Shown here: piece after piece, positions 4,561 to 64,000 of the stretch
How the letters are laid out: each line of letters begins with the position of its first letter
How positions within the stretch are numbered: position 1 is the stretch's first letter
Assembly: GCA_964019335.1 (NCBI GenBank)
Contig: OZ025713.1
Coordinates: forward strand, 62,001-126,000
Length of the DNA: 64,000 bases
Reading direction: 5' to 3'
Origin: Diplonema japonicum
Taxonomy: Eukaryota > Protista > Euglenozoa: Diplonemea
The notes under the pieces: model-generated
What the model was told of the DNA's origin: nothing
Databases searched by the model: none
Seen by the model: the letters and a program-made list of their open reading frames with translations, nothing else
Translations under genes and position numbers: made by a program

Positions 4561-4600
4561 TTCCACCCTTCCCCCCCCCCCCCCCCCCCCCCCCCTTCCC

Positions 4601-22421: not shown

Positions 22422-22444
<23 letters not shown>

Positions 22445-37827: not shown

Positions 37828-40025
37828 TTATTCTGTCTTGTTGTTTTGTGTCACGTCACCGTCGCTGAGAGCCTTCTTCACATCAGCTTTTCCTTCCGTG
37901 ATGAGGATGTGTAATGCGTCGGTGTTTCCATTCTCGGTAGCTATGCAACATGGGGTAGTACCGTTGCTGTCTGCCATGTTCACATCAGCCTTTCCTTCCC
38001 TGATGAGGATGCGTAATGCATCGGCATGTCCGTTTTGAGCCGCCATGTAACATGGAGTAACACCATTATCTCTGGCCTTGTTGACATCAGCCTTTCCTTC
38101 CCTGATGAGGATGCGTAATGCATCGGCATGTCCGTTTTGAGCCGCCATGTAACATGGAGTAACACCATTATCTCTGGCCTTGTTGACATCAGCCTTTCCT
38201 TCCATGATGAGGATGCGTAATGCATCAACGTGTCCATTTTGAGCCGCCAAGTAACACGGGGTAGTATCGTCGTCTTGTGCTTTGTTGACATCAGCCTTGC
38301 CTTCCATGATGAGGATGCGTAATGCGTCAGCATGTCCATTCTGAGCCGCCAAGTAACACGGGGTAGTACCGTCGTCTTCGGCCTTGTTCACATCAGCCTT
38401 TCCTTCCCTGATGAGGATGCGTAATGCGTCGGCATGTCTATTAAGAGTCGCCATGAAACATGGAGTAACACCATTATCTCTGGCCTTGTTGACATCAGCC
38501 TTTCCTTCCGTGATGAGGATGCGTAATGCATCAACGTGTCCATTTTGAGCCGCCGTGTAACACGGGGTAGTACCGTCGTCTTCGGCCTTGTTCACATCAG
38601 CCTTTCCTTCCATAATGAGGATGCGTAATGCATCAACGTGTCCATTCTGAGCCGCCGTGTAACACGGGGTAGTACCGTCGTCTCCTGCTTTGTTGACATC
38701 AGCCTTGCCTTTCATGATGAGGATGCGTAATGCGTCAGCATGTCCATTCTGAGCCGCCAAGTAACACGGGGTAGTATCGTCGTCTTCGGCCTTGTTCACA
38801 TCAGCCTTTCCCTCCGTGATGAGGATGCGTAATGCGTCGGCATGTCCATTCTGAGCCGCCTTGTAACACGGGGTAATACCATTCTCCTTGGCCTTGTTCA
38901 CATCAGCCTTGCCTTCCGTGATGAGGATGCGCAAGACATCGGTGTGCCCGTTTTGAGCCGCCATGAAACAAGGGGTAGAACTCTCGTCGTTGGCCTTGTT
39001 CACATCAGCTTCGCCTTCCGTGATGAGGATGTGTAATGCGTTGGCGTGTCCGTTTTGAGCCGCCATGAAGCAAGGGGTAGAACTCTCGTTGTTGGCCTTG
39101 TTCACATCAACCTTTCCTTCAGTGATGAGGATGCGCAATGCGTCCACGCAGTCGTGTTCAGCGGCGACAGAGCACGCAGTCCTGCCAGACGCATCCACCG
39201 TATCCGCCGCCAGACTCCCAGAGAGGAGGACATCCTTCAGAAGGTCAGAACGATTCCTTGCCGCCGCCGCATGAAGCACTGTCCACCCTTTACGCGGTCC
39301 CTCTTCCTTGTTCGTTCCCCAGAACCTGTCGCCGAGCACCTGAACCACCTTGTCGAACACAGCCCGCCTGCAAGAACACGCAAGAAGCCCGACACCTGCT
39401 GTGTGAAGCTCATCTGGTACCCCAGCAAGTTCCGCTCCCTTGCTCAGCAGAACTGCCGCACTGTTCTCGTGGCTCCCGTTCTTGTTCATCCGCAACACTG
39501 CTGCGAGAGAAGAGTTCAGAGCCTCAGAGTGAGCGGCGGGTGACAGGTTGGCACAGCACAGCGACACCACCTGCTCGTTGTGCTCCAACTCTGCCGCCGC
39601 CTGAAGAACTGTCTTCCCGTCCACAACAGGTATCTCCGTGCTGAGCGGGTAGACCACCCACCTTCCTTCACGTGTCACCGGATGGTTTTCAAAATGTCTG
39701 TCCTCTATGAGCTTCGTCTTGATCGTATCGATGAGCTTCGCGTTGCGGACACGCTCCACCTGTGTCATGACGTCTTCAAGCCTGCCCCAGTGATCGAAGT
39801 CGATTTCCTGCAGCTCCACCACCACCACGCGACGCATGCTTGTGTCGAGAGCCACCTCCAGCAGACGCATCACACCGATGTCAGGGCGCCCCACCACCCG
39901 GAACTGGGTGTTCGCTGAGATCAGAACCTCCTTCTCCTCGGGGAAGCGGCTGAACCGAGCGATGCTCCGCCCAGTCTTAACACGCAGAATGAGGATCGTC
40001 CCCTGAACTTCTTCGTTGTTGTCTC

Positions 40026-40067
<42 letters not shown>

Positions 40068-41106
40068 TACCCTTCCCAAGGAAGTCCTTCACCACCTCAG
40101 GGTTCTCACTTGCACTCGTGGGGTGAGGCATCGTCACCACCGCCCCCACAGAGTACAGCGACTCACTCACCCGGAAGTCCATTGCACGGAACACGGTCCC
40201 CTCGTACTTCGGCTGCGACACCATTGCTCGGTGCAGGGAATAGGCGAAGTCCTTCATCGGCTCGTAGCGCTCCCGCTCCCCACGGAACGCCACCTCACGC
40301 ATCGCCGCGTTCACCTCGTAGCACAAGGGGCTCTCCAGAGTGTACAGCCGAAGGTACGGCTCCGACTTCCCCTCCACCTGCTGCACCGCCCACTTCGCAG
40401 TCATCGCCTGGAACACCCCACCAGCTGCTCGCTGTCCCGGCTTCAGCTTCCCGCACTTCGCAAGGTGCCGCTCCTTGTTCCCCGCATTCAGCGCAGTCCC
40501 ACACGCAGCACACGTCACATACCCAGAGCACTCCCTCCCCATCGCAGCCTCCACCGTCGCCAGCATCGGCCTTGCACACGACCCACCTTTGAAGAACTCG
40601 CTCCACCCTCGGTCCACGTCGATCTCGCCGACCCCATCGCTGTACCGGCTCACCACTCCCTTGTTCGCTGCCACCACCCCTCCTCCACTCACCTTTTTTT
40701 ATTTTTTATTATTTTTATTTATTTTATTATTTTTTTACGCTTCGTACCTTGAACGCCTTCACCGCCTGCTGCAGCTCTTTACGTGCGACACCAGTGATGA
40801 CACACAGTCCCCCACACCGCGCTCCTTGTTGCGCTTCAGGAACTTCTGCATCACAGCAATCACGTTGTGGCACAGTGCGTCGTGCCACTTCCCAAGCGCC
40901 GTGTCCAGCTCCACCTCCAGCTCCCTTCTTCCTGTCTCCACAACTGGCGTGGTGGTGGTTGTGGTTGTACCCCCCACCCTGCTCGCCAACTGTCCACGCA
41001 GCTGCTCCACCGCTTCCCACGCTATTTTTACAGCTCCCTCTCCTGCTGGAGGAGGCGACGTCAGGGCCTTCGCAGCCTGCACACCAGATCCCGCTGTTGT
41101 TGTCAT
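37828..41106 (-). CDS. Zn-finger + R-S-E (ARTC-type) mono-ADP-ribosyltransferase + ankyrin-repeat protein; intron 40693-40747; 1-nt frameshift near 40778
   Basis: CAAC..HLAKC, LRLYT.E...Y..VN..MR, VFRAM, PTSAS, EEKEVLI, then 13 34-aa ankyrin repeats. Upstream exon joins through a GTACG...AAAG intron. Spliced length is 1 nt short of a multiple of 3 (error or lesion). Confidence 0.85.
37870..39195 (-). repeat. 102-bp tandem array encoding 13 ankyrin repeats
   Basis: Repeating TPC..AA.NGH.DALRILI.EGKADVNKA. Confidence 0.95.
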
Positions 41107-42119: not shown

Positions 42120-45100
42120 CTCAAAGTACAGGACAAGCCCCCCGCTAGAGGGCCGCCCTATGGGAGGGGGGGGTCTATCTGTTAATACTCCCCTTCTGGA
42201 GCATTGCTTTCATCCCGATTGTGGCTGCGAGCGTCTTGCGGAGTAGTGTGATGCGATCCCGCTTGTAGGCGGCCTTCAAATCCATCAGCTTGTCGTGCGT
42301 GGACTGGGTAGCAAAAATGGGCCTCCTGGAGAAGCCTATAGCTGCCTTTCCTCCTATGGCGATGAGGGACTTCACCCTTTTCTGCTCATCCGCTGGGAAG
42401 GGGCGTCGCTTCTTCCGTGCCCTGCACGCTGCGTTTATCTTTACGATTAGGGCCTTGATTCTGCGTGCCCTATCTTCCAGCAGGCCTCCTAATGATTTAC
42501 CGGTCGTCCATTCGAAGTCAATGGCTAGCTCCACCGCCGACACCTCCGAGGCGGTGTCCTTCTCCACCCAGCGCAGCTGTGACAACCATTGTAGCAGCGG
42601 GTTCAGGTACTGGGACAGGACCCCACCCACTCCCTCGAGCTCGCCTGCTATCGGAACGGGGCATCTCTTTCCTACTACATTTCGTTCCCACGGTAGCGGC
42701 TGTGTGTTGACGTCCTCCTTCTGCATGAGCTCCACGTCCCGCTTCTCAACCACCACGGCCAAGTATCGTTGCAGTTTTTCCAGGTATGCAAAGGCATGTC
42801 CTCTCGGCAGTATTGCGTGTAGCTCAAGACACAGGGGCCATCCCGTCCTGTCGCGCAGCGGTTCCAAACCGTCCTGTGCCAGCTCGTCCCGTGCGCAGGC
42901 ACACTCGTAAAGCTGATGGCGGAGTAAGGTTACCGTGTCCGGGTGTGGTGACTCACACAGGTCACACCTGAACCCTTGTGTGCGTGGTACTTCCGTCGTT
43001 GGGACGTGGTCTATGCTGTCCCCGTCTTCCTCGGTGCCATCTCCTTCTGGTGCCAGGGGGACGCTCCTTTGACTCGTACCTGCATGCGGGCTAAGGTAGG
43101 GGACCCCTCCGGCGATCACCCGTCTCAGGCAGTAGGACATGAGTGGGTCCTTGGCTGTCTTCCACAGTTGGTTGGTTTTGGGATCCGCTCCCGCCTCCAT
43201 CCCCTTCACTGTGCTTCTTTCGTTCGCCAGTGACCTGCTCCGGGCTTTCCTCACCGCGTCCCTAAAGGCGTGCCCGCGCTCGGCCCAGGGTTTGTTCCTA
43301 CAGTCTAGCAGCTGCGTCCAGTTCCACCCTATGTAGGGGAGCCACCGACATATCAGGTTGCCTACTGGCCCCATTGGGATGGACCCCGTGCCGCACCCCG
43401 CAGCGATCCGTGTGCATCTCTGTCGCAGTCTCTCGTCCTCAAGCGCTCTGGACACTACCTTCAGGGAGTGGTATATCACATAGGAGAGGGGGTCGCTGGT
43501 GTGCCCCTTCAAGAGGACCGTGTTGACCGCGGTTGGAGATCGTCCACGATGATGCGGGCCCCACAGATTGCATGTTACCCTCGTTGACAACTTCTTGAGT
43601 GTCTCGTCACATGGGGGAGAGAACGGCCCGCTGTAGAGGCATGACGGGAGTACTGTCGTGCTGACCATGTGTGCTTTGGTCTCGAAAGCTAATCTCGTGC
43701 ACCCTAGCCGGTCTAGTGAGTCAAGTGCATCCGTGGATGGTCTGTTCCATTTCGTTCCTGTCCTGCGCGTGTTGATCTTCACGCCAAGCCCTTTGAAGTC
43801 CGTCACTGTCTTGTAAGGTACAGCAACTACCGAGCCTTTCCTAATCGCCGTACGGTCTCCTACGACTCTCGACTTGTAACCCTCTGCGGTGCCAAAGCCA
43901 ACCGTCTTTTCCTCGTTGACCTTCATGCCAGTCAGGTCGCAGAACTCCAGAGTCCCTTCGACCGCTGCTTGTAGGGAGTCGCGTAGCTTCGCTAACAGGT
44001 AAGCGTCGTCGGCATATGCTAGCACCTCGGCGTCCGGCGCTACTTGCTCGATGGCCCGTATCATGATGGAGAGCAGGGCGTTGATGACAATGACCGACAA
44101 CGGGCACCCCTGGAGGATTCCGTTTGTGGCCTCAAATGTGTCACCTACTCCTATGGGGTACTTGAACCTCCTTGTGATCTGGGAATACATCCCCTGGAGT
44201 GCTTTCCCTATGGACTCGTCCATCCCCAGGGCGCTCATGAGGTCAAGTGACAGCTGTTGTGGGACTAGGTCGAAGCACTTTCGAAAATCCAGGGCTAGTC
44301 CCTCCAGAGGCTCTCCTTCCACCGAAGCCAGCTCCAGCTTGGTACACAGTTCCATGAGGGCTGTTGTCGTACTGTGCTTGGGCCTAAACCCGTGCTGTCT
44401 CGGCGTGATCCAACGTTCCTGCCAGTCAAGGACATCCTTCAGCCTCGTACACGCCCACAAGCGGTAGATGGTGCTGGTCACTGTGATGGGTCGGTGGTTC
44501 AGCGGTGCTGACCCTTCACCCTTTGGTATCAGTGACACCAGGGCTGTCGTGATCTGTCTCGGCCACTGGCCCGTCTCCTCAATCAGGTTGAAGAGGTCTG
44601 CGAAGGCCTTCAGGATGCTCACCGGGAGACGTTTCAGCTCACTCATTCGCCAGCCGTCTACGCCACAGGCTCCCTTCTCCGGCTTCTTTTTGACCACTTC
44701 TCTTAGCCGCTCTGCTGTGATCGGGGTCCGCGTCATTGGGGTTTTCTTGATTAAGTCCCTGTAGCGTTGTGCGAATCGTTCGTACTGCGGCTCGTCTTCT
44801 GGTGTCCGCGCAGAAAAGATGCCCGACCAAGCATCCCGCATCACCTCGTCCATCTTCCGTAGGTTTGCGGTCACCCCGCCGTCTGCTGTCTCAACCACAT
44901 CTGTCTTCTGGTTTGGGCGGTCTCTGACCCAGGCTGTGATGTGTCTGCGCTCCTTCCCAAAGTCTGAGCGTATTGAACGTTCGTATGCTTTCGCCTGCAT
45001 GTTCTTGCGTTGTAGGAGCAGCTCCGATAACATTCCCTGGGCGTAGTCTTCAGCTATTTCCAGCTCTCCCCTGATGCTATCAATACTCCCTGCCGCGTCG

Positions 45101-45750
45101 GTCTTGCAGGATTCGACCTTCAGCTCTTCCCCCAACGTTGTAATGTTCCTGAGTGTGTTCCGTACCTCTACTGGGAGCGGCCCGCAGTGCCCGCCCTCAT
45201 AGAGCTTTAACATTTGTTGTTTTGCGCTTCGGATTTTGAGCTTCAACTTCTCAAGTCGTTGTTGTCGATTTGTTGCCGCCCCAACTGTCGACTCCGTAGA
45301 CCTCGCACTCAGCTCCGACTTCGTAGGCTCCCGAACCTTGCCTCTCCCGGTGTATACGCTGCGCACCGGACCCACGTATCCATGTAGTAGGTACTGCTCC
45401 GCGAGGTCTGCTATCTCCGAGAACGCTTCGGTGGGCTTCTGCGCCGTAATGAACTCACGGTATTTCGACTTCTGCATCAGTGTCTCCGCTACTCCGGTGG
45501 GTGCCCTCTTGGTCTTCGGTATCTCCTGCGGGACGGTGTATCTTAGGACTTCTTGTCGGAAGGCTGGGATGTTGAGTGTTACCGACAGGCATCGGTGGTC
45601 CGACCCGGAGATAGCCTCGTTTACTCCACAATGTTCGAGCCCCTGGGCCGCGATGTTGTTCAACAGTACCCTATCCACCCGCGTACTGCAGTTGGTTCTG
45701 ACAAGCGTGCTCTCTACCTGCACTCCATCCCTCCGAGCACAGAACGCAGC
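42120..45750 (-). mobile_element. 5'-truncated APE-RT non-LTR retrotransposon with an uninterrupted 1182-codon frame
   Basis: APE C-terminal motifs TRVDRVL and SDH. RT motifs NHRPITVTS, QHGFRP, LDFRKCFD, GILQGCPLS, YADD. CDLC..HQLYEC Zn finger. VSAVELAIDFE domain. Confidence 0.95.
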
Positions 45751-48507
45751 AAAAAAAAAAAAAGGAAAAAAGTTATTTGCTTACCGTGAACGGTGTTTTT
45801 TCTCAAAAAAAAGAGATTTTCAAAAAACACCAAAATAATTGTCGTATTTCTTTTTCTTCTTTTTTTCAAAAAATAAATAATAATGATAAATAGAAAACTA
45901 GAACAATCTTTTGTTCCCCCCTTTTCCTTTTTTCTTTTGTAATCATTCACTGGTGGAGGGTATTTTTTTTCTTTGTGGAAAAGTCATCACAAAGACAACG
46001 GGGGGGGGGGGGGGGGTGGACAATCAATATGTCTAGACCTGCTCTTCAGTCCTTTCCAGCAGAACCGAGGGCTTTCGTAACGAATTTACGGCATTGTTGT
46101 TGATTCAAAAAAGAAAGCGCTCCTTAAGGCGCTTTAAGCTTCTAAAAAAATGATTGTAGACTCAAGGCACTAGGAGGAGACCCTTCAAAAGAACAACTTA
46201 ACCACAGCTTAATAAAAAGAACTGGCGGTTTTTCTTTGTTTACAATTATGGGGGGGGGGGGGTGTAACAGATCTTCTTCTTCTCGTTCGCTTTCTCTATG
46301 ACCAAAACGTTACAAACCGTTACAAACATGCTCAAATCTTTTTTTTCAAAAACCCTATTTTGACGATCTGAGCCCATTCCAGCCATTAAAACCCAAAATA
46401 GAGCCTTATTTAAGGCCTTAAATGCAGTTTTGAAAAAACTGGTTTTCAGACCTGTGATTCTCCTGGATTTATGATTAACCCGACTGTGATCGAAAATCTA
46501 AAATTGCTCGGGTCGGGTTTCAAAACCCGAAGGTGATCGGTTAACCCTGGACACTATGTAATAAGTAAAGTAAACCCGAAGCCCGTTATATCAAAAGAAC
46601 GGCAAAAAAAAAAAAAAAAAACACAGGTTTGAGCTTTCACAGAAACACACGCTGACAGCCTCTCTCATATTATGTGCAACCTTTCACCTCTACCCGTACC
46701 AGTACCACTGGATAAGGTACGGAGCCGCCTAGTGCTGAAGACGCTGGACGCACTCCCCACCTTCAAAGGAGGGGTGTGCCTGTTCCCTGATAGCCGTAGT
46801 GGTGGAGGAGTCTTTGACTTTTCCGATTTATTCAGGGCACTGAGGGCACTGTAGTTGCTGTAAGCACTGCCCCCCATGAGGTCATCGTCTAGCTTCTCCA
46901 GAGACGCCACGGCACTGATCACAGGCAGCTCGGCCTCCATAGGTTGCAGGTCTTCTAGCATCACAACATCTTCACGCGCCACATCACCCTCCTCGATGCT
47001 GTTCCCGCAGCACAGGAAGTGCGCCACAAACGACCCCTTCCTCCCCTTCTCGTCCCAGACACAGTACTCGTCCACCACGAACACCACCAAGTCGATCACG
47101 AACTTCAGGAGGATCACATACACAATGACCATCGAGAGCTGTCCTGCAACACCTGCCGTCCAGTGGTCAGTGGGGTGGCTGCTTCCCAAGGCAACGGTGA
47201 TGAGGATCGTCACGACCAGCTCCATCCCCACCACACAGGTGTCCAGGAAGTTCTCGTAAGGTGCGATGTAAGGACGGAGAAGCAGAACCAGCAGCATCAC
47301 TCCCAGAATGGTCGCCGTGATCCCCGCCTTCGTCATGCACTGGTCTGAGTTCAGGGGTTCCCACGCCGACACAATCCCCATCAGGAAGGTGGTGAGGAGT
47401 TCCCAGCACAGGTAGTACCTGAAGATCCCAGGGCGGTAGGCATCGTACGATAGCCCGTTCAGCCCACACCACACACCGTCCCCCTCTTGTTTCTTAGACA
47501 CCCACTCCTGTTTTCCCCAGAAGGCCCACTGCAGGATCCCCCCTCCCGTGGGAAGATTATCAACCAGTGCTCTCCTTGGAACTGTCTTTCCTACTCTCCA
47601 AGCGTACACAGCGAACAGCCCAGGGAACACCGCCAGATCCACAGCAGCCAGCACCTTGAACCCCATTGTCGAGTAGAGCAGGGCGGCGAAGCACGACAGC
47701 ACCGACCCCCCGAACAGGAACTGAATCGGGATGAGCGACCACCCCACACGTGCCCTCGCAAGGATGTACAGTGTGCTCTCCCCAGGGTGCCGCGAGCGGA
47801 CGATCGTCACAGCGGTCCCTGCTGCCAGGACAAGTGCCACCTGCATGCCGACACTTCCCACCAGAGCCCCGTTCACCTCCTTGTTCACTCCAGAGCCAAT
47901 CGTGAGCCCCAAGGGGCAGTGTCCTGTCCAGCTTCGTCGTCCCATCAGAGGGACACAGCATCATGCGTTGAACGAGGGATGCCCGCACCAAAGCGGGGCC
48001 TGCCGATGCAGAGGCCGGTACAGCAGCAGCCACCACTGTCACAGAGGCCGTCGCTGCCGCCGTTGTTCCTTCCAGCTGTTCGTGGTTCGGGAGGATGTTC
48101 GCTTCTCCTTTCATCTGCACTGTCACCTTGCACCCCACCCCGCACTCACACTCCATCCCGTCAGCAGCATTCCCACATACAAACGAGCTGCTCGCCCTAA
48201 AAAGCTCTTCCCTCAGGAGAACGGCCACCACCTCACCCTTCCCCTCGAACCCTGTGTAGTTCCCGTCTCGTATCATCAGGTCTACCCCGTCACGACCATC
48301 GCTCACCTTCGCCGTTACCGCTTCCTCGTTCTGCTTGCTGGATGCCACGAACCCCACCCCTGCTGCATCAGGTGCCTTGTCAGTCTCCAGAATCACACAC
48401 GCCCCCCCACCACAGGTCACAGGGGGTGTTCCCCCAAGCACCCGGCCACCGCGACCACTGCCACTATTTCCAAAGGTCATGGACCCCCCAGGCCAGATGA
48501 GAACTAC

Positions 48508-49095
48508 ATATATATATATGAGTTAAAGGAAGTCTTTGTGAGACGCCCCCTTGTTCTCATCTTCTACCTGCACCTATCCCCTTTCAGCAGCGGGTTCTCC
48601 TCCTTTGGTGGTCTTGCCGGCCTTCTCCCCAGCCTGGCCGCTCTTTCTCTTCGTTCTCTCGCCCATTGTCCTTTCAATGCCTCTAGGTCATGCTTGGTCT
48701 TCGGTGATGCAAATATCGCCCTCCTGTTCCATCCGATCACCGCCTTTGTCCTCCCGATGGATCGTAGTGTGTGCACCCTTGTGCTCGGCTCAGCTGGGAA
48801 GGCCCTCCTTCCTTTCACCTTCTTCAGTACCCTCCCTAGCTCCCATGTGTGCCAGATCTTCTTCATCAGTCCAATCTCCTCGCTTTCTGCTGTACTTCTG
48901 CGAGATCCCCCAGCTTCCCTCCAAGGGTCTTCCCGGTCACGTTCTCGAAATCCAGTGCCAGCTCCACCGTCGACACTGACGTGTTTCTGCTGCCTGCATA
49001 CCAGCGCAGTTGCCGCATCCACCTCAGCACCTCCTTCGTGTACTCCCGTAGGACATCCCCTGCCGGTAGCTTGCCGAAGTCCTTGTCCGACGGTT
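48508..49095 (-). mobile_element. 588-bp LINE 3' fragment (family C) with a 10-bp target-site duplication
   Basis: tgagaactac at 48498-48507 and 49096-49105. Removing the insert restores GVPLLVVLIWPGGS, as in the paralog. Encodes VSTVELALDFENVTG. (AT)n tail. Confidence 0.95.
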
Positions 49096-50169
49096 TGAGA
49101 ACTACTAACAAAGGAACCCCGGAACCGTATTCCAAGAGCCGCCCGAGGAGACGGAAGCGAATGGTCCCTCCGTCCCCTCTGATCACATCCCCAGTGAAGC
49201 GCTCCGGATGGATCCTACACTGGAACCTCTTTCCATCAGGTGAGGCTGTGACAGGAGGGGCCGCAGTGGGAAGTGCTGTGGGAGGGATCGCTGTTGCTGG
49301 AGTAGAAGTGGGAGTCTGTGTCGGGGTGAGGGTGGCGGGTGCTGTTGTGGGAGGTGCATCGGTGTTGGGGACGAAGGTGGAGGGGGGCACTGTCGGTGGG
49401 GAAGACGTCGGGGGCTGTGTGAGGGGCACCAGGGTGGGGGGTGCTGAGGTAGGGGGTGCCACCGTTGGTACTGCTGTGTCTGGTGTCACCGTGGCAGGTG
49501 GCTGCGTATCGGGCACAAGAGTTTCAGGGGCTGGAGTTCTTGGTGCCAGTGTGGCAGGCTCAAAAGTGTCAGGTGCGATGGTTATAGGAACGAGCGTGTC
49601 CGGGCTAGCAGTGGCAGGAACAAGTGTCATTGGGGCGGGGGTACTGGTTGCTGATGTCGTACCAGGAACGAGTGTGTCTGGTGCTATTGTATCAGGAACG
49701 ATCGTGGGTGGAGCTGTGTCAGGAGCTGCTGAAGCTGGGAAGGGTGTGCTCGGAGCAGACGTATCTGGAAACGGTGTCGACGGGGCAGCAGTGTTCGGTG
49801 GCGTTGTGTCAGGTGCCGTAGTAGGGACCGCCGTGTCAGGCGCAGGGGTCGGAGGTGCCACTGTGGTACCTGGTACCAAGGTGTCAGGGGCACTTGTCGC
49901 AGGTGCAGGTGTATCAGGTGCAGCAGTGCTTGGGGCCAGCGTATCAGGAGCTGTATTTTCTTTCTTATTTACAGGAACTCAAGAACTATGGCAATATGTT
50001 TACGAGATAAAAACCTCCGAAGTTACCGTAAAAATTAAATAACAACGTGTAGTCCTTAATGGCCAGTGCAACCGAAGAAAATGCCATGTTTAGAAATGTT
50101 CAAAAAAAAATATCCTCATACCAACAGTATCTGGAGAAGGGGTCTTAGGAACCGGTGTAAACGGTGCAC

Positions 50170-51230
50170 TAGTAGCAGGAGGCTGCGTGGCAGGAGCTTG
50201 AGTAGCTGGAGGCTGTGTGGCAGGCGCCTGAGTAGCAGGAAGTTGTGTTGCCGGAGCCTGAGTGGCAGGAGCTTGTGTAGCGGGAGCCTGTGTTGCTGGT
50301 GGTTGCGTGCCGGGGGGCTGCGTAGCAGGTACTTGCGTTGCTGGAGCCTGTGTAGTAGGAGCTTGTGTTGCTGGAGGTTGCGTAGCAGGAGCCTGTGTTG
50401 CTGGAGGCTGTGTGGCGGGGTGTGTGGCAGGAACTTGCGTTGCCGGAGATTGTGTAGCAGGTGCTTGTGTTGCTGGAGGTTGCGTGGCGGGGGCCTGCGT
50501 GACAGGAGCTTGCGTTGCCGGATATTGTGTAGCGGGTGCCTGTGTAGCTGGAGGTTGTGTCGCTGGAGGCTGAGTGGCAGGAGGTTGCGTGGCGGGGGAC
50601 TGTGTGTCAGGTGCTTGCGTTGCCGGAGGTTGTGTAGCAGGTGCCTGTGTTGCTGGAAGTTGTGTGGCGGGGGACTGCGTGTCGGGAGCTTGCGTTGCCG
50701 GAGGTTGCGTAGCAGGTGCCTGCGTTGCTGGAGGTTGTGTGGCGGGGGTTTGCGTGGCAGGAGCTTGCGTTGCCGGAGGTTGTGTAGCAGGAACTTGTGT
50801 AGCTGGAGGCTGTGTGGCAGGAGGTTGTGTTGCCGGAGCCTGTGTTGCCGGAGGTTGTGTGGCGGGGGCCTGCGTGTCGGGAGCTTGCGTTGCCGGAGGT
50901 TGCGTAGCAGGTGCCTGAGTTGCGGGGGCCTGCGTGGCAGGAGCTGGGTTGCTGGAGGTTGTGTGGCGGGGGCCTGCGTGTCAGGAGCTTGCGTTGCCGG
51001 AGGTTGTGTAGCAGGAGGTTGTGTCGCCGGAGCCTGTGTTGCTGGAGCTTGTGTATCGGGAGCCTGTGTTGCCGGAGGTTGCGTGGCGGGGGCCTGTGTG
51101 GCAGGAGCTTGTGTTGCAGGAGCCGGTGTTGCTGGTGGTTGAGTGGCGGGGGGCTGTGTAGCCGGAGGTTGCGTAGCTGGAGGCTGTGTGGCTGGGGGCT
51201 GCGTCGCCGGAGCCGGTGTTGCAGGGGCGC
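50170..51230 (-). repeat. 15-bp coding minisatellite (ATQPP/ATQAP/DTQAP mucin-like stalk)
   Basis: Periodic gcagg/gctgg/gccgg-agg/agc-ttgtgt units. Confidence 0.9.
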
Positions 51231-52420
51231 TTGTGGGAATCGCTGTAGGGGGGGCATCGGTGGGGACGGCTGTGGGATCTGGCGCGTTTAAGTCAATAAC
51301 CTGCAGGCCTTTCTCAAAGTCCGTGACGTAGACGTACGGCTTGTCGAGCACAAGCCCCTTAGGCTTGCCAGGCGTCTTGACGATGCTCGTGAGTGAGAGG
51401 GTGGCCTTATTGGACGCGTCGACAATGGCCAGCCCGCCTTCCCCGTTGTTGGGACCTTCACATGCCACGTAGATGGTGTTTGTGGGGGGGTCGAAGACAG
51501 AGTCCCTGCATTTGAGCCCAATGGCGAGTTCCCCGACGAAGGTGGGGGCCAAAAAATCTGTTGTGTCGAAGATGTGCACCCCGCCGCTCCAACCGCTGCT
51601 TCTCTTCTCCGAAGCGATAAATATAAATTCATTATAGCTTGATACGCCGTGGCCCTTCCCGTTGAACGGAGTAGTTGATTTCTTGCGCAGCTCCACAGTG
51701 GGGTTAGAAATGTCGCCGATCAAGATACTGCCGTCTAACACACAGTAACAAAGCCCACGGGAGAAGTCAACGTTGAAGCCCAAGCCCTTGAGGATGGTGC
51801 TGGAGCGGGCGATACTGGGCACGTCTGATGGTGTCAAGGTAGCACTGGCAACGGCCAACTGCCCTCCCATGATGAGACGGTTATTAGTCTCGTCATAGTA
51901 CGCGTGCTCCATCCAGTTAAAGTCGCACTCATGTAGCATAACCATGGGGTTCATGGTAATATCGAAGACTCTCACCTTCCCGCCTCGGCATGGTACCTAC
52001 ATCCTTGTTCTTGCACTGTTCGTAGCCACCTGCCCGGGCCTGTCTGAATCCGAGTCATGTTTCTGCAGTTGCACTGGGCTGCTAGGATTTGAAACGTCAA
52101 TGATCTCAAGCCCGTTCGCCGCTGCGTGCGACACAAACACAAGGTCCCCGTTCTTCGTGATGAACTCCGCCCTTGGTGGCGAGTAATCGTTTGTGTTCCC
52201 GATGATCGCCGCTGTCTCTACATCCTGCAGCAGAAAGAGGATAAGGGCGTATAAAAAAGAGAGCTTTCTCATCTTCACGACCATGGGGTGGGGGGTGGGG
52301 GGGGGATAACCTGTGAAAGTTCTTGTTGAACAGAAACAACACGTCGAGAAAAGGAAAAAAAGGCTTGGGGGGTCTATCTCTTGATACTCCCTGGCTGCAC
52401 CTACTACAACTTCCAAATTT

Positions 52421-53466: not shown

Positions 53467-54798
53467 TCAACGTGACCACCCATGACCCAGCGCAACACAG
53501 GCGAGTAGAACACCATAAAGGAAAAATACAACTACAACAATATACATTTCGCAGGCCAAGAACACCTGCTGCATGAACCTCCTGCAAGACAGCAAAAGAC
53601 TATCCTCTTGTACACATTGTGAAGGTACGACGGCGTCACCAATATGGGGTGCTTTCACCGCTCGTGCACGCTTTCCCCTCGTTACCCTCGGACGGAAAAA
53701 GATTGCATAAAGGGGACGCACGCAATATGGACCCCTCTGTTCCCCATCACCAACGGTGATAACGCTGCATAAAATCACGAACCTTTTCCTGTTGTTCCCA
53801 TATATGGTCTCGGGGGTGCTCGAAAAGGACAAATCCGAGATGTTTCTCTTGCACTCCAAGAACAAGGCTAGTTCCGAGGCGGGGAGGAACGTGTTAAGGT
53901 ACAGGTGCCTCTCTTCGACCTCCCCTGTCGCGCGGAGCCCGTAGTACCTCACAAGCCTTTCGTAAGTCCACTCTATCCTGCTGATGGTTACATCTGATGC
54001 CTTTAAGTCCTTCTTCAACTGAATGAGCATTTCGTGAAATGTCCCGTTACGCGGCATGCTTTGCAGGGCTTTGGAAACTGCAGAAAAGTGGCGTGGGTGT
54101 GCTTCGTGAAACCGGAGCTTCGCTGGCGGGAGATCTTCCTCATTAATCATCGCAGAGGTTACACTATCAAGACTGGCGAGCCACGCTGGGATCGACGCTT
54201 TATGGGATTCACCCATATCCCTGAACTTAATGAGGAGCATTGGCAATGCCATGACGGTGTTCCTTTTGGTGTGCACTATATGGAAACGCTGGTCAGGAAC
54301 ATAGGTGGAATGGACCCCAGGTGTGCCAATGAGCAGCTTACAGTACAGCATATACTCTCCACAGTACGGCACGGCTGACTTGGGCTTTGCTGAAAAGTAC
54401 TCGCCTTTTCCGTGGGCTTGGGCGTTGCGTTGTAAAGTATCGAAGCCGTTGTTGGTGATCCCGTCGATGTTCATCTCTGTTGTCCCGTGGTAGCCGTGGC
54501 TTATGTCGAGGTACTCTCCTTTCATGTGGGACAGCCAGGCTTGGGTTTCGTTGAACCTCTGCTCCAGTTTTTTGTTGTTGATTTTCCATGCTTTTAGGAT
54601 GTCGTGCCCCCAGGAGCCCCCCCAAGACGCCTTCAGATCTTGGAAATCTTCGGGGCGTTGTATGCGTTCGAAGCTTGCCACTACTGGGTTTTTCGTTGTT
54701 GCTGCTTTTTTGAGGGGTTTGGGAGTCTTATGGATGAGGTGGCTCTTCGGGCACCTTGTTGTCGCCTTCTCTTCCACTTTTAATGCAACAGCGTTCAT
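53467..54798 (-). CDS. PARP-like (H-Y clade) ADP-ribosyltransferase domain protein with a probable second degenerate PARP-like domain
   Basis: GYHGT...I..NGF, HGKGEYFS, SAVPYC, MLYCKLLIG, ALPMLLIKF. Second block RHLYL..LSFSS..FVILCSV..VRPLYAIFF. 3' end uncertain. Confidence 0.8.
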   Translation of the reverse strand: MNAVALKVEEKATTRCPKSHLIHKTPKPLKKAATTKNPVVASFERIQRPEDFQDLKASWGGSWGHDILKAWKINNKKLEQRFNETQAWLSHMKGEYLDISHGYHGTTEMNIDGITNNGFDTLQRNAQAHGKGEYFSAKPKSAVPYCGEYMLYCKLLIGTPGVHSTYVPDQRFHIVHTKRNTVMALPMLLIKFRDMGESHKASIPAWLASLDSVTSAMINEEDLPPAKLRFHEAHPRHFSAVSKALQSMPRNGTFHEMLIQLKKDLKASDVTISRIEWTYERLVRYYGLRATGEVEERHLYLNTFLPASELALFLECKRNISDLSFSSTPETIYGNNRKRFVILCSVITVGDGEQRGPYCVRPLYAIFFRPRVTRGKRARAVKAPHIGDAVVPSQCVQEDSLLLSCRRFMQQVFLACEMYIVVVVFFLYGVLLACVALGHGWSR

Positions 54799-55270
54799 TT
54801 TTCTTTTCTTTTTAACCGATAAACAACCTTTTTTTGTGAGGGGTGGGGGTGAGCTTCTTTTTTTCTTCTTTTGAACGAGAAAAATAATAATATATATAAA
54901 TAAAAAAAAAAAGAGGGTCTTTTCTTCCGGAGCCAAGGAGCAAGGGATAACGTGGGAAAAACAAAAAAAAAAAAGAAGCTGCAAGACAGAAGACAAAGCG
55001 GAGCAAGAAGGGGAAAAGAGGTGCAAAACAATGCGAATGGGAGAATCGAATAGGAAAAAAAAACCTTTTTTTTTTGAAAATCTTCTCGATCCATATCTTT
55101 AAACAAAAAACCAGTTGTTTCTTGGAATCTTGGTGGAGAAAACCTGCTATACATGCCCCCCTAGGGCTGTGCTTGTGCTTTTTTAAGATGAGGGTAGAAT
55201 CAATAAAATTCTTGTTGCCAACGGGTTTCAGAGATATGGAAGCGGTAGTTCTGGAAAGAAAAAAAAAAAA

Positions 55271-55848: not shown

Positions 55849-55883
<35 letters not shown>

Positions 55884-56743: not shown

Positions 56744-56799
<56 letters not shown>

Positions 56800-58223: not shown

Positions 58224-61200
58224 TTAAATCAAATTCAACCGCTCGACCTTCCTGTTCCCATCAGCAATTGTTCGCGTGCGTCTCGAACCATGGAAAATAC
58301 CCGAGGCGTCCATCACCTGAGGAGTGAACCGTTTCCCCGTGTTTTGCACTGGGGGGGTTCTAGGTGTCTGTGGACGAGAAGACTTATTCAGCACACTGAA
58401 GTTACTGTAAACACTGCCCCCCATGAGGTCAATCTCTGGTGTATCCACAATCTTTCCACGAACAAATGAATCTTGCGGCTGCAGGTCTTCTAGGCTTATT
58501 ATCCCCGGAGGCACCTTCTCGTCGTCGTCCTCCTCGATGCTGTTCCCGCAGCACAGGAAGTGCGCCACAAACGACCCCTTCCTCCCCTTCTCGTCCCAGA
58601 CACTGTGCTCATCTATTGTGAACACCACCAAATCGATCGCAAATTTCAGGAGGATCACATACACAATGACCATCGAGAGCTGTCCTGCAACACCTGCCGT
58701 CCAGTGGTCAGTGGGGTGGCTGCTTCCCAAGGCAACGGTGATGAGGATCGTCACGACCAGCTCCATCCCCACCACACAGGTGTCCAGGAAGTTCTCGTAA
58801 GGTGCGATGTACGGGCAGAACATCAGTACCAACAGCATCGCCCCGAGGATGGCCGCTGTGAAGGCAGCCTTCGTCATGCACTGGTTCGTGCTTGGTGGTT
58901 CCCACGCCGACACAATCCCCATCAGGAAGGTGGTGAGGAGTTCCCAGCACAGGTAGTACCTGAAGATCCCAGGGCGGTAGGCATCGTACGACAGCCCGTT
59001 CAACCCACACCATGCTCCGTCCCCAGGGGTCTTCCACGACACCCACTCCTGCTTACCCCAGAAGGCCCACTGCAGAGATGTGGTGTTCACCTTTTCAACA
59101 TATGCTTTCCTGGGCACGACCCTTCCTATCTTCCAAGCGTACACAGCGAACAGCCCAGGGAACACCGCCAGGTCCACAGCAGCCAGAACCTTGAACCCCA
59201 TTGTCGAGTAGAGCAGGGCGGCGAAGCACGACAGCACCGACCCCCCGAACAGGAACTGAATCGGGATGAGCGACCACCCCACACGTGCCCTTGCAAGGAT
59301 GTACAGTGTGCTCTCCCCAGGGTGCCGCGAGCGGACGATCGTCACAGCGGTCCCTGCTGCCAGGACAAGTGCCACCTGCATGCCGACACTTCCCACCAGA
59401 GCCCCGTTCACCTCCTTGTTCACTCCAGAGCCAATCGTGAGCCCCAAGGGGTTCAGCGTCCTGTCCAGTTCCGTCGTCCCATCAGAGGGACACAGCATCA
59501 TGCGTTGAACGAGGGATGCCCGCACCAAAGCGGGGCCTGCCGATGCAGAGGCCGGTACAGCAGCAGCCACCACTGTCACAGAGGCCGTCGCTGCCGCTGT
59601 TGTTCCTTCCAGCTGTTCGTGGTTTGGGAGGGTGTTCTGATCTCCTTTCATCGGCACTGTCACCTTGCACCCCACCCCACACTCACACTCCATCCCGTCA
59701 GCAGCATTCCCACATACAAACGAGCTGCTCGCCCCAAAAAGCTCTTCCCTCAGGAGAACAGTCACCACCTCACCCTTCCCTTTAGACTTCTGGTAGTTCC
59801 CGTCTCGTATCATCAGGTCCACCCCGTCACGGCCATCGCTCACCTTTGCTGTCACTGTTCCATTGTTCCGCTTGCTGGCCGCTGCGAACCCCACCCCTGC
59901 TGCATCAGGTGCCTTGTCAGTCTCCAGAATCACACACGCCCCCCCACCACAGGTCACAGGGGGTGTTCTTCCCTGCAATCCGCTATTTCCAAAGGTCATG
60001 GACCCCCCAGGCCAGACCAGAACCACTGACAAAGGAACCCCTGCTCTGTGCTCCAAGAGCCGCCCTAGAATGCTGAAGTGCATGGTCCCTCCGCCCCCTC
60101 TGATCACATCCCCAGTGAAGGGGTCTGGACGGAGCCTCCACTGGAACTTCTTTCCATCCGGTGAGGCTGTGACAAGAGGGGCCGCAGTGGGAAGTGCTGT
60201 GGGAGGGATCGCTGTTGCTGGAGTAGAAGTGGGAGTCTGTGTCGGGGTGAGGGTGGCGGGTGCTGTTGTGGGAGGTGCATCGGTGTTGGGGACGAAGGTG
60301 GAGGGGGGCACTGTCGGTGGGGAAGACGTCGGGGGCTGTGTGAGGGGCACCAGGGTGGGGGGTGCTGAGGTAGGGGGTGCCACCGTTGGTACTGCTGTGT
60401 CTGGTGTCACCGTGGCAGGTGGCTGCGTATCGGGCACAAGAGTTTCAGGGGCTGTTGTATCAGGTGCAGGTGTACTAGGGGCAGGTGTACTAGGGGCAGG
60501 TGTACTAGGGGCAGGTGTACTAGGGGCAGGTGTGCTCGGAGCAGTGGTGTCCGGAAATGGAGTAGGTGGAGCAACGGTAGGGGGGGACGGGGTGTCGGGA
60601 GCCGCAGTTGGCACTGCCGTGTCAGGCGCACGAGTTGACGGCGCTAAAGTGTCAGGTGCCGGCGTGTCGGGTGCTGTTTTTTTTTTTTCTTCTTTTTTCT
60701 TCTGTACTTTATTGGTGTCCAACCGTGTCATAAAGTTTCACTCAGCAGGTAAAACGGTTGGATATATCAATGTGCTCATAATCAGCGGAGAACATCTCCT
60801 TTTGTGCACACCAGAGAGTACACGGCGATCGTTGTTTCAAAGACGCACGCCCCAGCCCAGACATGGCAGGCGACCTCCGAACCCGAAAGCTAATCCAAGG
60901 GAGCACAGGTGGCACTTGGTCGCACCAAGATCGCGTCAGCTCCAGAAGGGAGGTGTTAAAGATAGACCCCCCCCCCCCCCCCCCATAGGCGAAAACAGCA
61001 AGCGAAAGAAGCGCTTTCCAGGGATACCGTACCAGCTAGTCTTGGGATCACAGAACAAAAACAAAGAAACAAAAAGGAAAATGAAAAACATACCAGAAGT
61101 GTCCGGGGCAGACGTGTCAGGAAAAGGTGTCGCAGGCGCAGGTGTCGCTGGAGCCTGGGTGGGCGGAGCGGGCGTCGCAGGTGCCACAGTCGCGGGCGCA

Positions 61201-62249
61201 GGTGTAAGGGGTGCCGGTGTTGCAGGAGCGAGAGTGTCGGGGGCGTCAGTATCCACCGCATTGATGTCAATAACATGCACCCCTGCTGACCCGTCTGCAA
61301 CGTAGATGTACGGCCTCTCAACAACAAGACCCATCGGCATGCCAGGTGTGTTGATCACCTCCTTCAAGGAAGGAGCCGCCTTGTTGGTCACATCCACAAT
61401 AGCAACCCCATCAGGGTCAGCACTGTACATACCCGGACAAGCCACGAAGAGCGTGTCAGCGTCCCACACAACATCCTTGCAACCCATGTTCAACGGGAAG
61501 TCGCTGATGAGAACGGGAGCGGAACTATCTGTCGCATCCAGAATGTGGACACCACCCTTCCAAGACCCGCTGGAAGTGGACGCGATGTAGATGAACTGAT
61601 TCACGGTGAAGACACCGTAGGCCTTGCCGATGATGTTGGTGGTGCTGATGATATCGATCAGCGTTGTTGGGTTTGAAATATCTGCGATTTGAAGCTTCCG
61701 GTCGCTCACCCCGTAGGCGAGGTTGCGGGTGGTGTCGACAGCGAAGCCGACTGCTTTGAACGAAGTTTCACTCTGCGACACTTGAACGGTAGGGGACAGT
61801 GTGACGCTAGACATCCCAGTGGTGGACCCGCCGGCTACGTAAAGTAAATCATTCGTCTCATCGAGAATGCAGTGCTTCAAGTAGTAACGGGTGGTGCTTT
61901 GGACTTCTTGCATAGGGACGGCCGTGATATCGAACACCTTGATGCTCCCTTCTGACTGGTATGTGACGTACATTCTTGTCCTTGCGGCGTTCGTTGCCAT
62001 CTTCCCGGGCCAGATCACCTTGGGGGTGATGACCTTGCTGTCGACTGAGGTGGGGCTGCCAGCGGTGGACACATCGATGATCTCCAGCCCGTCCTCTTCC
62101 GTGTGCGAGACGTACAGGAAGTCCCCGTTCTTCGTGACATACTTCGCCCTCGGTCTCAGCATCGCGTTCGAGGTCCCGATGATCTTCGCGCTCTGCACCT
62201 GCGCTGTGCACAGCAGCAGCAGAGTTGGGATTGCATGTTTTATAATCAT
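58224..62249 (-). CDS. Surface receptor: signal peptide, LVIVD-repeat beta-propeller, Pro/Thr/Ala stalk, Cys-containing domain, multipass TM region, cytosolic tail (about 1201 aa); intron 60674-61093
   Basis: GLEIIDVS, GVHILD, GVAIVDV, YIYVADG..GVHVID. Phase-1 GTATGT...ACAG intron gives 3606 nt in frame, at the same position as the paralog's intron. Confidence 0.85.
60720..60990 (+). mobile_element. Degenerate LINE 3' fragment (family D-like), antisense within an intron
   Basis: ctccagaagggaggtgttaaagatagaccccc..cataggcg matches the reverse complement of 42155-42200. Confidence 0.7.
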
Positions 62250-62474
62250 GTAATTAATTTAAAAAAAAAAAACCTTTTTTTTATTTTCTTTTTTTTTTTT
62301 TTTTATGTGTGGATAAAAAAGAAGAAGAAAAAAGAAAAAAAAAAAAAAAAAAAAAACAAAGAAGTTCACTAAAGGTGAGGATCGAGGAACAACGACCAAA
62401 GAGCGGGGAAAGAAAAGCATGAAGGCAGCCAAGCAGGCCGGTCGATGCAACAACTCACGCAATATTCTGTGTGC

Positions 62475-62566
62475 ACTCTGCTGTTTTTGCGTCACGTCAC
62501 TGTCGCTGAGAACCTTCTTCACATCAGCTCTTCCTTACGTGATGAGGATGTGTAATGCGTCGGTGT
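62475..62566 (-). pseudogene. Remnant of the last ankyrin repeat and C-terminus of an ART-ankyrin paralog
   Basis: Matches 37840-37925 (KKVLSDSDVTQ versus KKALSDGDVTQ). Confidence 0.75.
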
Positions 62567-63342
62567 GTTTGTTAGTCGATTTGCAATACGGGGTAAATAC
62601 CTTTCACATAACTGAACGTAAGAACGTAACCATTCACATTTAAGGGGGGGGGGGGGGAGGGGGCTGCTAAAATGCACTCCCTGCAGGCGTCTACGAAGGA
62701 GCTCGATGGTCCACAGGCTTGTCCACAAGACTTGGCAACGGCGACAGGTCGGATGAGAGCTTTTGATTGTTGCGCCTGCCCTCCGCACTGGCACCTTCTA
62801 TGCATTGCAATAATACAATTTAAAAAAGTGGTGTAAAAAAAGAAGCAGGAAAGGTAAATGTGAATTAAGTTGAGGGTTTTCTTTTTCTTTTTCTTCTTTT
62901 TTTTTTTTTTTTTTTTAACCAGCGCTGGGAGCATTTGGGACACTGTAAAGTGTAAGAAAAGTTGTGATTAAATAAAATATATATTCCGGATTAAAATATC
63001 CACACTTTCTTTTGGCAGTTTTGGCAGAATTTTCTTTTTTTCACTCATAAAACTTAAAAATTGAAAAGTTTGCTTTTCTAAGGGGTTCTTCACGGCTAAA
63101 ATAGGCCAAAATGGCACTATTTCTCCCCACCCCAAAAGCTTCACAGATTTTTCTATCTGCGTCCATTCCTCCGGAAAAACGAAAACGAAAAAAAAATATA
63201 TATGAGTTAAAGGAGGCCGGTGTTGGCGGCGCCCTGCAAGTACTGTCTACTTGATTACAAAAAAAAAAAAAAAAAAATCATTTTAAAAAACATGTTTTTG
63301 CACGTGCGTTTTAAAAATAAAACAAACAGTGAGCATTTTGAC

Positions 63343-64000
63343 CTATGCTACACCTGGGACTCTACACCCTGCTGCGATAAGGGTTTGTAATGCGTCGGCG
63401 TGCTTGTTTTCAATCGCTTTGCAACACGGGGTAATACCGTCGTTGTTGGCCTTCTTCACATCGGCTTTTCCTTCCGTGATGAGGATTCGCAATGCGTCGG
63501 TTTTTCCGTTTTCGGCAGCTATGTAACACGGGGTACAACCGTCATTGTTGGCCTTGTTCACATCAGCCTTTCCTTCCCTGATGAGAATGCGTAATGCGTC
63601 AATGTGACTATCAATGGCCATGATACACGGGGTAATACCGTGGATATCGGCCATGTTCACATCTGCCTTTCCTTCAGTAATGAGGATGCGTAATGCGTCG
63701 CTGTGCCCACCTTGAGCCGCCTTGTAACACGGGGTCATACCATTTCTGTCGGTCTTGTTCACATCAGCTTTTCCTTCCGTGATGAGGATGCGTAATGCAT
63801 CGGCATGTCCATTTTCAGCCGCTATGGAACACGGGGTGGACCCGTCGTCGTAGGCCTTGTTAACATCAGCCTTTCCTTCCGTGATAAGGATGCGTAATGA
63901 GTCAGCGTGACCAATACCAGCCGCCGTGATACACGGTGTCTCACCTTTAATCTCTGCCTTGTTCACATCTGCCTTACCTTCCGTGATGAGGATGCGTAAT
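63343..64000 (-). CDS. Ankyrin-repeat protein of the same family, 3' part; continues beyond the right edge
   Basis: Six 34-aa repeats with the same DALRILITEGKADVNKA framework. Confidence 0.9.
   Translation of the reverse strand, partial: LRILITEGKADVNKAEIKGETPCITAAGIGHADSLRILITEGKADVNKAYDDGSTPCSIAAENGHADALRILITEGKADVNKTDRNGMTPCYKAAQGGHSDALRILITEGKADVNMADIHGITPCIMAIDSHIDALRILIREGKADVNKANNDGCTPCYIAAENGKTDALRILITEGKADVKKANNDGITPCCKAIENKHADALQTLIAAGCRVPGVA

What the first reader, a model, noticed from the sequence alone, without database searches (positions are those of the whole stretch)
37828..64000. Tandem module pairing an ADP-ribosyltransferase-ankyrin protein with an LVIVD multipass receptor, plus a PARP-like gene: candidate protist immunity or conflict locus
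Seen: order along the minus strand is Ank gene, Ank 3' remnant (62475), LVIVD receptor, PARP-like gene, ART-Ank remnant (52421), LVIVD receptor pseudogene, LINE, ART-Ank. Both receptors have the 3' end of an ART-Ank paralog only about 140-230 bp upstream of their ATG, so [ART-Ank then receptor] looks like the duplicated unit. Known: R-S-ExE ARTs are toxin/ARTC-type mono-ADP-ribosyltransferases, and H-Y PARP-like enzymes act in antiviral responses. Inference: a birth-and-death cluster of variable sensors and ADP-ribosylating effectors from two ART clades.
Basis: partly seen in the sequence, partly recalled or inferred. Interest (0 to 1): 0.85.

Follow-up and report, generated by a model that had tools for sequence, protein, structure and literature searches.

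The report
Expanded toxin-like enzyme family in diplonemids
In a marine protist, copies of a multi-copy gene for a toxin-like protein-tagging enzyme with variable ankyrin repeats (likely a defence tool inside the cell) alternate with surface-protein genes in a decaying duplicated array, but the pairing is likely a by-product of duplication rather than a working sensor-effector system.

Summary
The gene order and both remnants are real. The host is a diplonemid. The ART-ankyrin gene keeps R-S-ExE, folds like HopU1/XopAI/ExoS, and belongs to a diplonemid family (7 of 7 homologues keep the triad). Contig depth suggests roughly 20-30 near-identical ART domains in this genome. Ankyrin variation sits on the binding face. 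The 'receptors' are signal peptide + LVIVD propeller + mucin stalk + 7-8 TM proteins of a large family with swappable ectodomains, reaching Bodo saltans (bodonin-like). Both are preceded by an ART-Ank tail, so ART-Ank and receptor were duplicated together long ago. But the window shows no intact pair. Both upstream ART-Ank genes are deleted remnants, receptor 2 is dead, and the 37.8-kb ART-Ank has a frameshifted first exon and no receptor behind it. ART copies outnumber this receptor subfamily about 4-5 to 1. None of 150 relatives of the TM domain is fused to an ART. The PARP-like gene is single-copy and outside the repeat. Unrelated genes are co-duplicated at 0-21 kb in the same window. Verdict: a real, apparently undescribed expanded family that is likely used in conflict; the coupled immune locus is unsupported (about 12%).

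The parts
63343..64000 (-). 3' end of an ankyrin-repeat gene of the same repeat type; 5' end (and any ART domain) lies outside the window
   Evidence: Pfam Ank; about 78% nt identity to ART-Ank repeats; different C-terminal tail
62463..62595 (-). ART-Ank 3' remnant (last ankyrin repeat and tail), about 215 bp upstream of receptor 1
   Evidence: score 145, 0 of 500 shuffles
58224..62249 (-). Receptor 1, intact: signal peptide, LVIVD beta-propeller, Pro/Thr stalk, extracellular domain, 7-8 TM helices, cytoplasmic tail; intron 61093-60674
   Evidence: Pfam LVIVD E 2e-12; hydropathy and intron; TM model; a contig of run X7 joins 61094-62247 to 60504-60667, and X7-X9 cover the exons with 0 differences
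53467..54798 (-). PARP-like gene (H-Y clade, 442 aa), single-copy depth, trans-spliced at 54828
   Evidence: Pfam PARP E 1.6e-7; PARP14 best PDB sequence hit E 0.003; spliced-leader loose end and full cover in run X7 (leader matches a euglenozoan SL consensus in PMC3795323)
52420..52891 (-). ART-Ank remnant: pieces of exon 1, post-ART linker and C-terminal tail; ART domain and ankyrin array deleted; about 135 bp upstream of receptor 2
46665..52284 (-). Receptor 2, pseudogene: nonsense codon near 51997, frameshifts near 50950 and 47916, LINE insertion; intron 50121-49951
   Evidence: the stop is covered with 0 differences by contigs of runs X1, X2 and X4
48505..49097 (-). LINE 3' fragment inserted in receptor 2, with (TA)n tail and 10-bp target-site duplication
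   Evidence: similarity to the C-terminus of the 42-kb LINE ORF; 97% to 22431-22656
42175..45780 (-). LINE ORF (reverse transcriptase)
   Evidence: Pfam RVT_1 E 1e-22
37828..41106 (-). ART-Ank gene: N-terminal helical exon (out of frame near 40785), CxxC...H...C putative zinc finger, ART domain (Arg codon 40188, Ser 40116, Glu-x-Glu 39936/39930), degenerate ankyrin-like linker, 12 full 34-aa ankyrin repeats

Best explanation
This is a decaying tandem array in a diplonemid in which copies of a multi-copy ADP-ribosyltransferase-ankyrin gene, predicted to tag arginines on proteins inside the cell and likely used against invaders, alternate with copies of an unrelated multipass surface-protein gene, likely because the two neighbours were duplicated together. 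Shown: gene order, remnants, breaks, catalytic triad, family membership, splicing of receptor 1. Predicted: ART fold. Estimated from depth: about 20-30 ART copies. Inferred mechanism: the N-terminal helical/zinc-finger part localises or regulates the enzyme, the ankyrin array, variable on its binding face, picks the target, and the R-S-ExE domain transfers one ADP-ribose from NAD+ to arginine. Gene turnover supplies new specificities, as expected under pressure from viruses, endosymbionts or ingested microbes. The receptor is inferred to be a bodonin-like adhesion or sensing glycoprotein. An old [ART-Ank, receptor] segment was duplicated and partly homogenised by gene conversion; its ART-Ank members and one receptor then decayed independently. 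The PARP-like gene is inferred to be a bystander. I give 0.75 to 'adjacency is incidental' and about 0.5 to 'the ART-Ank family acts in conflict or defence'.
For: Triad R-S-ExE in the window copy and 7 of 7 homologues, two of them isoforms of one gene. Structure model matches HopU1 (Z 12.0, rmsd 2.9, 100 aligned), XopAI, SpvB, ExoS, Vis; Foldseek best E 1e-4. No signal-peptide-like N-terminus in window exon 1 (max hydropathy 0.56) or the 7 homologues (0.2-1.6), against 2.1-2.8 for the receptors. Single ART-domain contigs have depth 5073 (X2) and 300-328 (X4) against 176-218 and 11-16 for unique contigs, about 20-30x, while the receptor TM contigs give 998 and 71, about 5-6x, and the PARP-like gene 215 and 11. 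Ankyrin pN 0.38 on binding-face positions vs 0.07 on framework, pS 0.60 vs 0.35, 16 repeats. Receptors: propeller 44% aa identity, dS 1.44; TM 89%, dS 0.19; tail 44%, i.e. old duplication plus conversion or ectodomain swap. No receptor match downstream of the 37.8-kb copy. TM family: 190 clusters, varied ectodomains in 26 of 150 scanned, 0 of 150 with ART/PARP/Ank. Relatives L003 and L004 have other neighbours. Control: 1-3127 matches 18306-21393 at 95%, carrying a beta-lactamase-like and a DUF924 gene together. Diplonemid genes lie in unidirectional clusters probably co-transcribed, with little control at initiation (PMC10161547, passages).
Against: Both receptors, whose ectodomains are near saturation, keep an ART-Ank tail within about 135-215 bp, and the remnants are still 85-89% identical to the 37.8-kb copy, so the arrangement lasted a long time. 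Depth is a rough measure (the tool says it is no copy number) and counts only paralogues at least 90% alike, so divergent receptors paired with other ART-Ank copies would be missed. The neighbour test rests on only 3 close relatives on 3.0-3.5 kb contigs, 2 of which show no ankyrin (one is cut at the contig end). Surface pN/pS is 0.63, below 1, so relaxed constraint fits as well as positive selection; the repeats are not independent and the positions were chosen from recalled ankyrin structure after seeing the sequences. The model is moderate (pLDDT 66). No activity or target was tested.
Confidence: 0.6

Rival explanations
1. Coupled sensor-effector locus: the receptor senses an outside cue with its propeller, its cytoplasmic tail recruits or activates the ART-Ank, and the pair is inherited as a unit with the PARP-like gene as a second effector.
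For: ART-Ank tail directly upstream of 2 of 2 receptors despite old divergence; opposite topologies would fit a relay; ectodomain and tail diverge while the TM core is conserved; receptor 1 and the PARP-like gene both stand in RNA-like runs of one study.
Against: The window shows no intact pair; the transcribed receptor 1 has lost its upstream ART-Ank; copy ratio about 4-5 to 1; no fusion in 150 relatives; PARP-like gene not duplicated; unrelated genes co-duplicate nearby.
Confidence: 0.12
2. ART-Ank is an ordinary intracellular signalling or regulatory mono-ART whose copies multiplied through general diplonemid family expansion and retroposon-rich segmental duplication, with no conflict role.
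For: Conserved in two diplonemid lineages at 41-52% identity; surface pN/pS below 1; diplonemids show very large gene-family gains, including signalling families (PMC10161547, passages); eukaryotes reuse toxin-derived ARTs as modifying enzymes (PMC3417536, passages).
Against: About 20-30 near-identical copies with fast pseudogenisation and variable N-exons, flanks and binding faces fit a housekeeping enzyme poorly.
Confidence: 0.2
3. ART-Ank is an offensive effector delivered into prey or host cells (diplonemids feed on other eukaryotes).
For: Closest folds are bacterial injected effectors HopU1, XopAI, SpvB, ExoS; predatory lifestyle reported for D. papillatum (PMC10161547, abstract passage).
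Against: No signal-peptide-like N-terminus in 8 of 8 sequences checked; no delivery domain seen.
Confidence: 0.08

Closest known systems
R-S-E clade (ARTC / cholera-toxin-like) arginine mono-ADP-ribosyltransferases: HopU1, XopAI, SpvB, ExoS/T, Vis; vertebrate ART1/ART2/ART5
   Same: Fold, Pfam PF01129, motifs R / S-A-S / E-x-E as tabulated for human ART1 and ART5 (PMC7955679, passages)
   Different: No signal peptide or GPI-type N-terminus; carries a putative zinc finger and a long ankyrin array; forms its own well-supported clade of 10 domains (100/99), only 25-31% identical to prokaryotic and phage relatives; multi-copy in a free-living protist
Tankyrases (ankyrin + PARP; recalled)
   Same: Ankyrin repeats likely select substrates for an ADP-ribosyltransferase in one chain
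   Different: Other ART clade (R-S-E, not H-Y-E), domain order reversed, no SAM domain, large variable family instead of one or two conserved genes
Bodonin / DGF-1 multipass glycoproteins of kinetoplastids
   Same: Signal peptide, variable repetitive ectodomain, about 7 TM helices, intracellular tail, multi-copy (PMC4728078, passages); the TM domain hits a Bodo saltans 'membrane-associated protein' at E 4e-6
   Different: LVIVD propeller ectodomain; whether that B. saltans protein is a listed bodonin was not checked; DGF-1 rib and hat-TM profiles found nothing in D. papillatum (bioRxiv 10.64898/2026.07.27.741050, passages); two homologues weakly match fungal TRP-like PF06011 below the cut-off
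Mono-ADP-ribosylating PARPs (PARP14/12/10 type)
   Same: His-Gly-Thr and Tyr motifs; PARP14 is the best PDB sequence hit
   Different: No macro, WWE or zinc-finger domain detected; third catalytic residue unresolved; single copy
Ankyrin accordion of Bodo saltans virus
   Same: Tandem, fast-turning ankyrin genes with N-terminal catalytic parts in a euglenozoan host-virus arms race (PMC5871332, passages)
   Different: Viral side; no ADP-ribosyltransferase mentioned (0 occurrences in main text)

Membership tests
R-S-E clade mono-ART | Arg on strand 1, Ser-x-Ser on strand 2, Glu-x-Glu before strand 5 | tested here: met
   Window copy and 7 of 7 homologues; also L003 first domain and L004
R-S-E clade mono-ART | ART fold | tested here: met
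   Z 12.0, rmsd 2.9, 100 aligned to HopU1; top 18 rows all ARTs; model pLDDT 66
R-S-E clade mono-ART | NAD+-dependent transfer to arginine | not testable with these tools
   needs an assay
Vertebrate ecto-ARTC / secreted toxins | Signal peptide or delivery domain | tested here: not met
   N-terminal hydropathy low in 8 of 8 sequences (simple window scan, not SignalP)
PARP-like (H-Y clade) | His and Tyr of the NAD+ site | tested here: met
   aligned to PARP14; Pfam score 31.5 above cut-off 26.7
PARP-like (H-Y clade) | Third residue (Glu for polymerases) | tested here: inconclusive
   alignment ends at residue 169, before that strand; no Glu is evident by eye
Bodonin | Ectodomain + about 7 TM + intracellular tail | tested here: met
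Bodonin | TM domain homologous to listed bodonins / DGF-1 | tested here: inconclusive
   one B. saltans membrane-associated protein at E 4e-6, not checked against the bodonin list; no DGF-1 Pfam match
Paired sensor-effector immune locus | Intact partners adjacent | tested here: not met
   no intact pair among the parts visible in the window; the 63.3-kb gene's 5' end is unseen
Paired sensor-effector immune locus | Conserved linkage or fusion across paralogues and species | tested here: inconclusive
   0 of 150 fusions; 0 of 17 loci with receptor or PARP hits, only 3 close and all short; no genome held
Paired sensor-effector immune locus | Co-induction or physical interaction | not testable with these tools
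   only contigs of coded runs available; they cannot rank expression

The most novel reading that the evidence does not exclude
Diplonemids run an innate immune-like system in which diversified bodonin-like surface receptors are genetically and physically paired with cytosolic, toxin-derived arginine ADP-ribosyltransferases whose DARPin-like ankyrin arrays recognise invader proteins. The weaker half alone (an expanded, variable ART-ankyrin defence family without receptor pairing) has a probability of about 0.5.
Probability: 0.12. Interest if true: 0.85.

Novelty: new variant of a known kind. Interest (0 to 1): 0.45.

Why it matters
Defence in free-living protists is little understood, and diplonemids are among the most abundant marine microeukaryotes. 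A cytosolic R-S-E mono-ART fused to a variable ankyrin array and present in tens of copies is a concrete, testable candidate for a protist intracellular defence enzyme and a convergent counterpart of tankyrase. My searches found no description of it (open-access library only; the main ART review was not held). The receptor family extends bodonin-like surface proteins to diplonemids. The receptor-ART pairing would matter much more, but the evidence does not support it.

Tried and rejected
No genome is held, so no genome-wide map was possible and the Ank gene could not be extended beyond 64000. No RNA holder was listed as such; runs X7-X9 behave like RNA (splice joint, spliced leader). Lack of cover of receptor 2's unique part (50121-51923) in X7 and of the 62.5-kb remnant in X7 and X8 proves nothing. 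A metagenome scan with the single ART sequence found nothing. The TM model found no fold match (Foldseek best E 0.12; VIA best Z 8.0 on helical bundles). ESM Atlas gave no answer. A PDB sequence search of the ART domain was swamped by its poly-Gly loop. A second ART-like domain in the PARP-like C-terminus was not supported (383 of 500 shuffles). The spacers upstream of the two receptors do not align (14 of 500), nor do the introns. ART-Ank as cargo of one mobile element was rejected because exon 1 and the 3' flank show only about 1-4x depth. No close viral or prokaryotic donor was found (25-31% identity). The first propeller dN/dS row was out of frame and was dropped, then redone. Earlier findings: 4 look-ups, all empty. 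Aravind et al. 2015 on ART natural history is not held and may already mention such fusions; supplements of PMC10161547 (gene-family tables) were not read. No complex prediction was sent, since binding is not claimed.
Full report
Host. The window has no held genome. It is from a diplonemid. Run X7 carries a loose end at 54828 whose reverse complement matches the 3' part of a euglenozoan spliced-leader consensus (PMC3795323, table passage). The best ART-Ank hits carry an 'Hpha' label, which I read from recall as Hemistasia phaeocysticola, or are labelled Lacrimia lanifica. The best receptor hits are Diplonema japonicum proteins.

Observation. Every listed part is present on the minus strand. 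Both receptor genes are preceded by the specific C-terminal tail of the 37.8-kb ART-Ank, ending about 215 bp (62463) and 135 bp (52420) before their ATGs; 0 of 500 shuffles reach either score. The 52-kb remnant is a whole ART-Ank gene reduced by deletions to bits of exon 1, the linker and the tail. The 63.3-kb Ank gene has another tail.

ART-Ank. Homologues show the architecture: helical N-terminus, a conserved CxxC...H...C motif, ART domain, an ankyrin-like linker and an ankyrin array. The R, S-A-S and E-x-E motifs are present in the window copy and in 7 of 7 homologues, of which P0003 and P0010 are isoforms of one gene. The AlphaFold model (8 sequences, pLDDT 66) matches ExoT, VahC and Vis in Foldseek (E 1e-4) and HopU1, XopAI and SpvB by VIA-align (Z 12.0, 11.6, 11.0). 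Two searches of the protein collection found only these 7 relatives, 6 from EukProt and 1 from a metagenome (one search scored only the top 7994 candidates). A metagenome scan added two relatives with the same N-terminal and ART modules but no ankyrin seen: L003 has two ART domains and a FYVE finger, and L004 is cut at the contig end. With the window copy, six of the seven proteins (P0010 and duplicate loci left out) and L003/L004, these form one clade of 10 of 27 domains (100/99); the rest are 25-31% identical prokaryotic or phage domains. The window copy's exon 1 is out of frame near 40785. Runs X1 and X2 hold both this form and a form differing by a 4-nt indel at similar depth; X4 shows only the latter. 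So this copy is likely truncated or dead, and the difference is probably not an assembly error.

Copy number, a rough estimate. In one search unique contigs with no differences have depth 176-218 (X2) and 11-16 (X4). Single contigs over the ART domain with paralogue-type letters have 5073 (X2) and 300-328 (X4), about 20-30 times that. Receptor TM contigs have 998 (X2) and 71 (X4), about 5-6 times. The PARP-like gene has 215 and 11. Exon 1 at 40785 and the 3' flank are at about 1-4 times, so the copies share the catalytic core but differ in N-terminus and flanks. The tool warns that depth is no copy number, and only paralogues at least 90% alike are counted. Across 16 full repeats (12 from the 37.8-kb gene, 4 from the 63.3-kb gene), amino-acid change concentrates at hairpin and first-helix positions: pN 0.38 vs 0.07, pS 0.60 vs 0.35. 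These positions were taken from recalled ankyrin structure, the ratio is below 1, and the repeats are not independent.

Receptors. Receptor 1 is intact. One X7 contig joins its exons across the 61093-60674 intron, and X7, X8 and X9 (one study) cover the exons with no differences. Receptor 2 has a stop near 51997, covered without difference in three runs, frameshifts, and a LINE fragment with a target-site duplication. The two share 44% amino-acid identity in the propeller (dS 1.44), 89% in stalk and TM (dS 0.07-0.19) and 44% in the tail: an old duplication with a recently homogenised centre. The TM domain has 190 relatives at E up to 0.001, of which 150 were listed. Of 28 TM-family clusters looked up, 13 carry a taxon label: five diplonemid genera and one Bodo saltans membrane-associated protein. 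Among 26 of the 150 scanned with Pfam, ectodomains were LVIVD (2), LamG/pentraxin (3), PAN, astacin, RCC1, disintegrin, VWA/zf-A20 (1 each), PT repeats only (5) or none (11). This is the bodonin plan (PMC4728078, passages), though membership is not shown and no fold match was found. 'Receptor' is an inference; adhesion is as likely.

PARP-like gene. It has the His and Tyr motifs and is nearest to PARP14 among solved structures (E 0.003). It is trans-spliced and fully covered in X7, has single-copy depth and has no second copy in the window. Nothing ties it to the repeat except position.

Is the pair functional? For: the tail precedes 2 of 2 receptors despite their age. Against: the window shows no intact pair; the expressed receptor has lost its ART-Ank; the 37.8-kb copy has no receptor downstream; the copy ratio is about 4-5 to 1; 0 of 150 TM relatives carry ART, PARP or ankyrin domains, with the ART profile recovering 7 of 7 controls that it was built from; 0 of 17 loci tested hold receptor or PARP matches, a weak test (L018-L021 not tested). 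The same window co-duplicates a beta-lactamase-like and a DUF924 gene (95% over 3.1 kb), and diplonemid genes sit in long unidirectional clusters probably co-transcribed (PMC10161547, passages), so neighbourhood carries little regulatory meaning.

Literature. Eukaryotes have repeatedly recruited toxin-type mono-ARTs (PMC3417536, passages; PMC3482391, passages). Searches for diplonemid or euglenozoan ARTs and ART-ankyrin expansions gave no description of this family (listings, plus passages of PMC5512222, PMC7955679 and PMC12503489). PMC10161547's main text has no occurrence of 'ADP-ribos' or 'ankyrin'; its supplements were not read, and the main ART review was not held.

Verdict. The interesting object is the expanded ART-ankyrin family, a new variant of a known enzyme kind and likely a conflict effector. 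The coupled receptor-ART-PARP immune locus is possible but unsupported. Interest 0.45.

Noticed in passing
window 1-21400: Tandem segmental duplication of secreted or membrane-anchored beta-lactamase-family genes (1-3 internal domain repeats, several with the same apparent intron or break) together with a DUF924 gene; 95-99% identical blocks
   Followed up: partly
window 4081-6405: BspA-type leucine-rich-repeat protein (Pfam LRR_5, E 4e-34) with a short ubiquitin-like-looking N-terminal part and a cysteine-rich C-terminal part
   Followed up: no
window 63205-63259, 56910-56993, 41575-41654, 23722-23809: Short high-copy repeat sharing the 3' tail of the LINE fragment at 48505; likely a non-autonomous retroposon family
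   Followed up: partly
window 36316-36602: About 290-bp imperfect inverted repeat (76%) built from a dispersed repeat also found at 37322-37450 and 23739-23848
   Followed up: no
window 27221-29668: 815-aa two-TM protein with no Pfam match; by eye it resembles receptor-type adenylate cyclase-like proteins with a degenerate cyclase domain (recalled, untested)
   Followed up: no
L003 243-2720: Relative with two tandem ART domains and a FYVE finger instead of ankyrins, suggesting membrane or endosome targeting within the same ART clade
   Followed up: partly
L001 1031-4714: Phage head-morphogenesis-like protein with four tandem ART-like domains
   Followed up: no
window 39990-40070: Poly-glycine (GGC)n expansion in a loop of the ART domain, much shorter in homologues
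   Followed up: no
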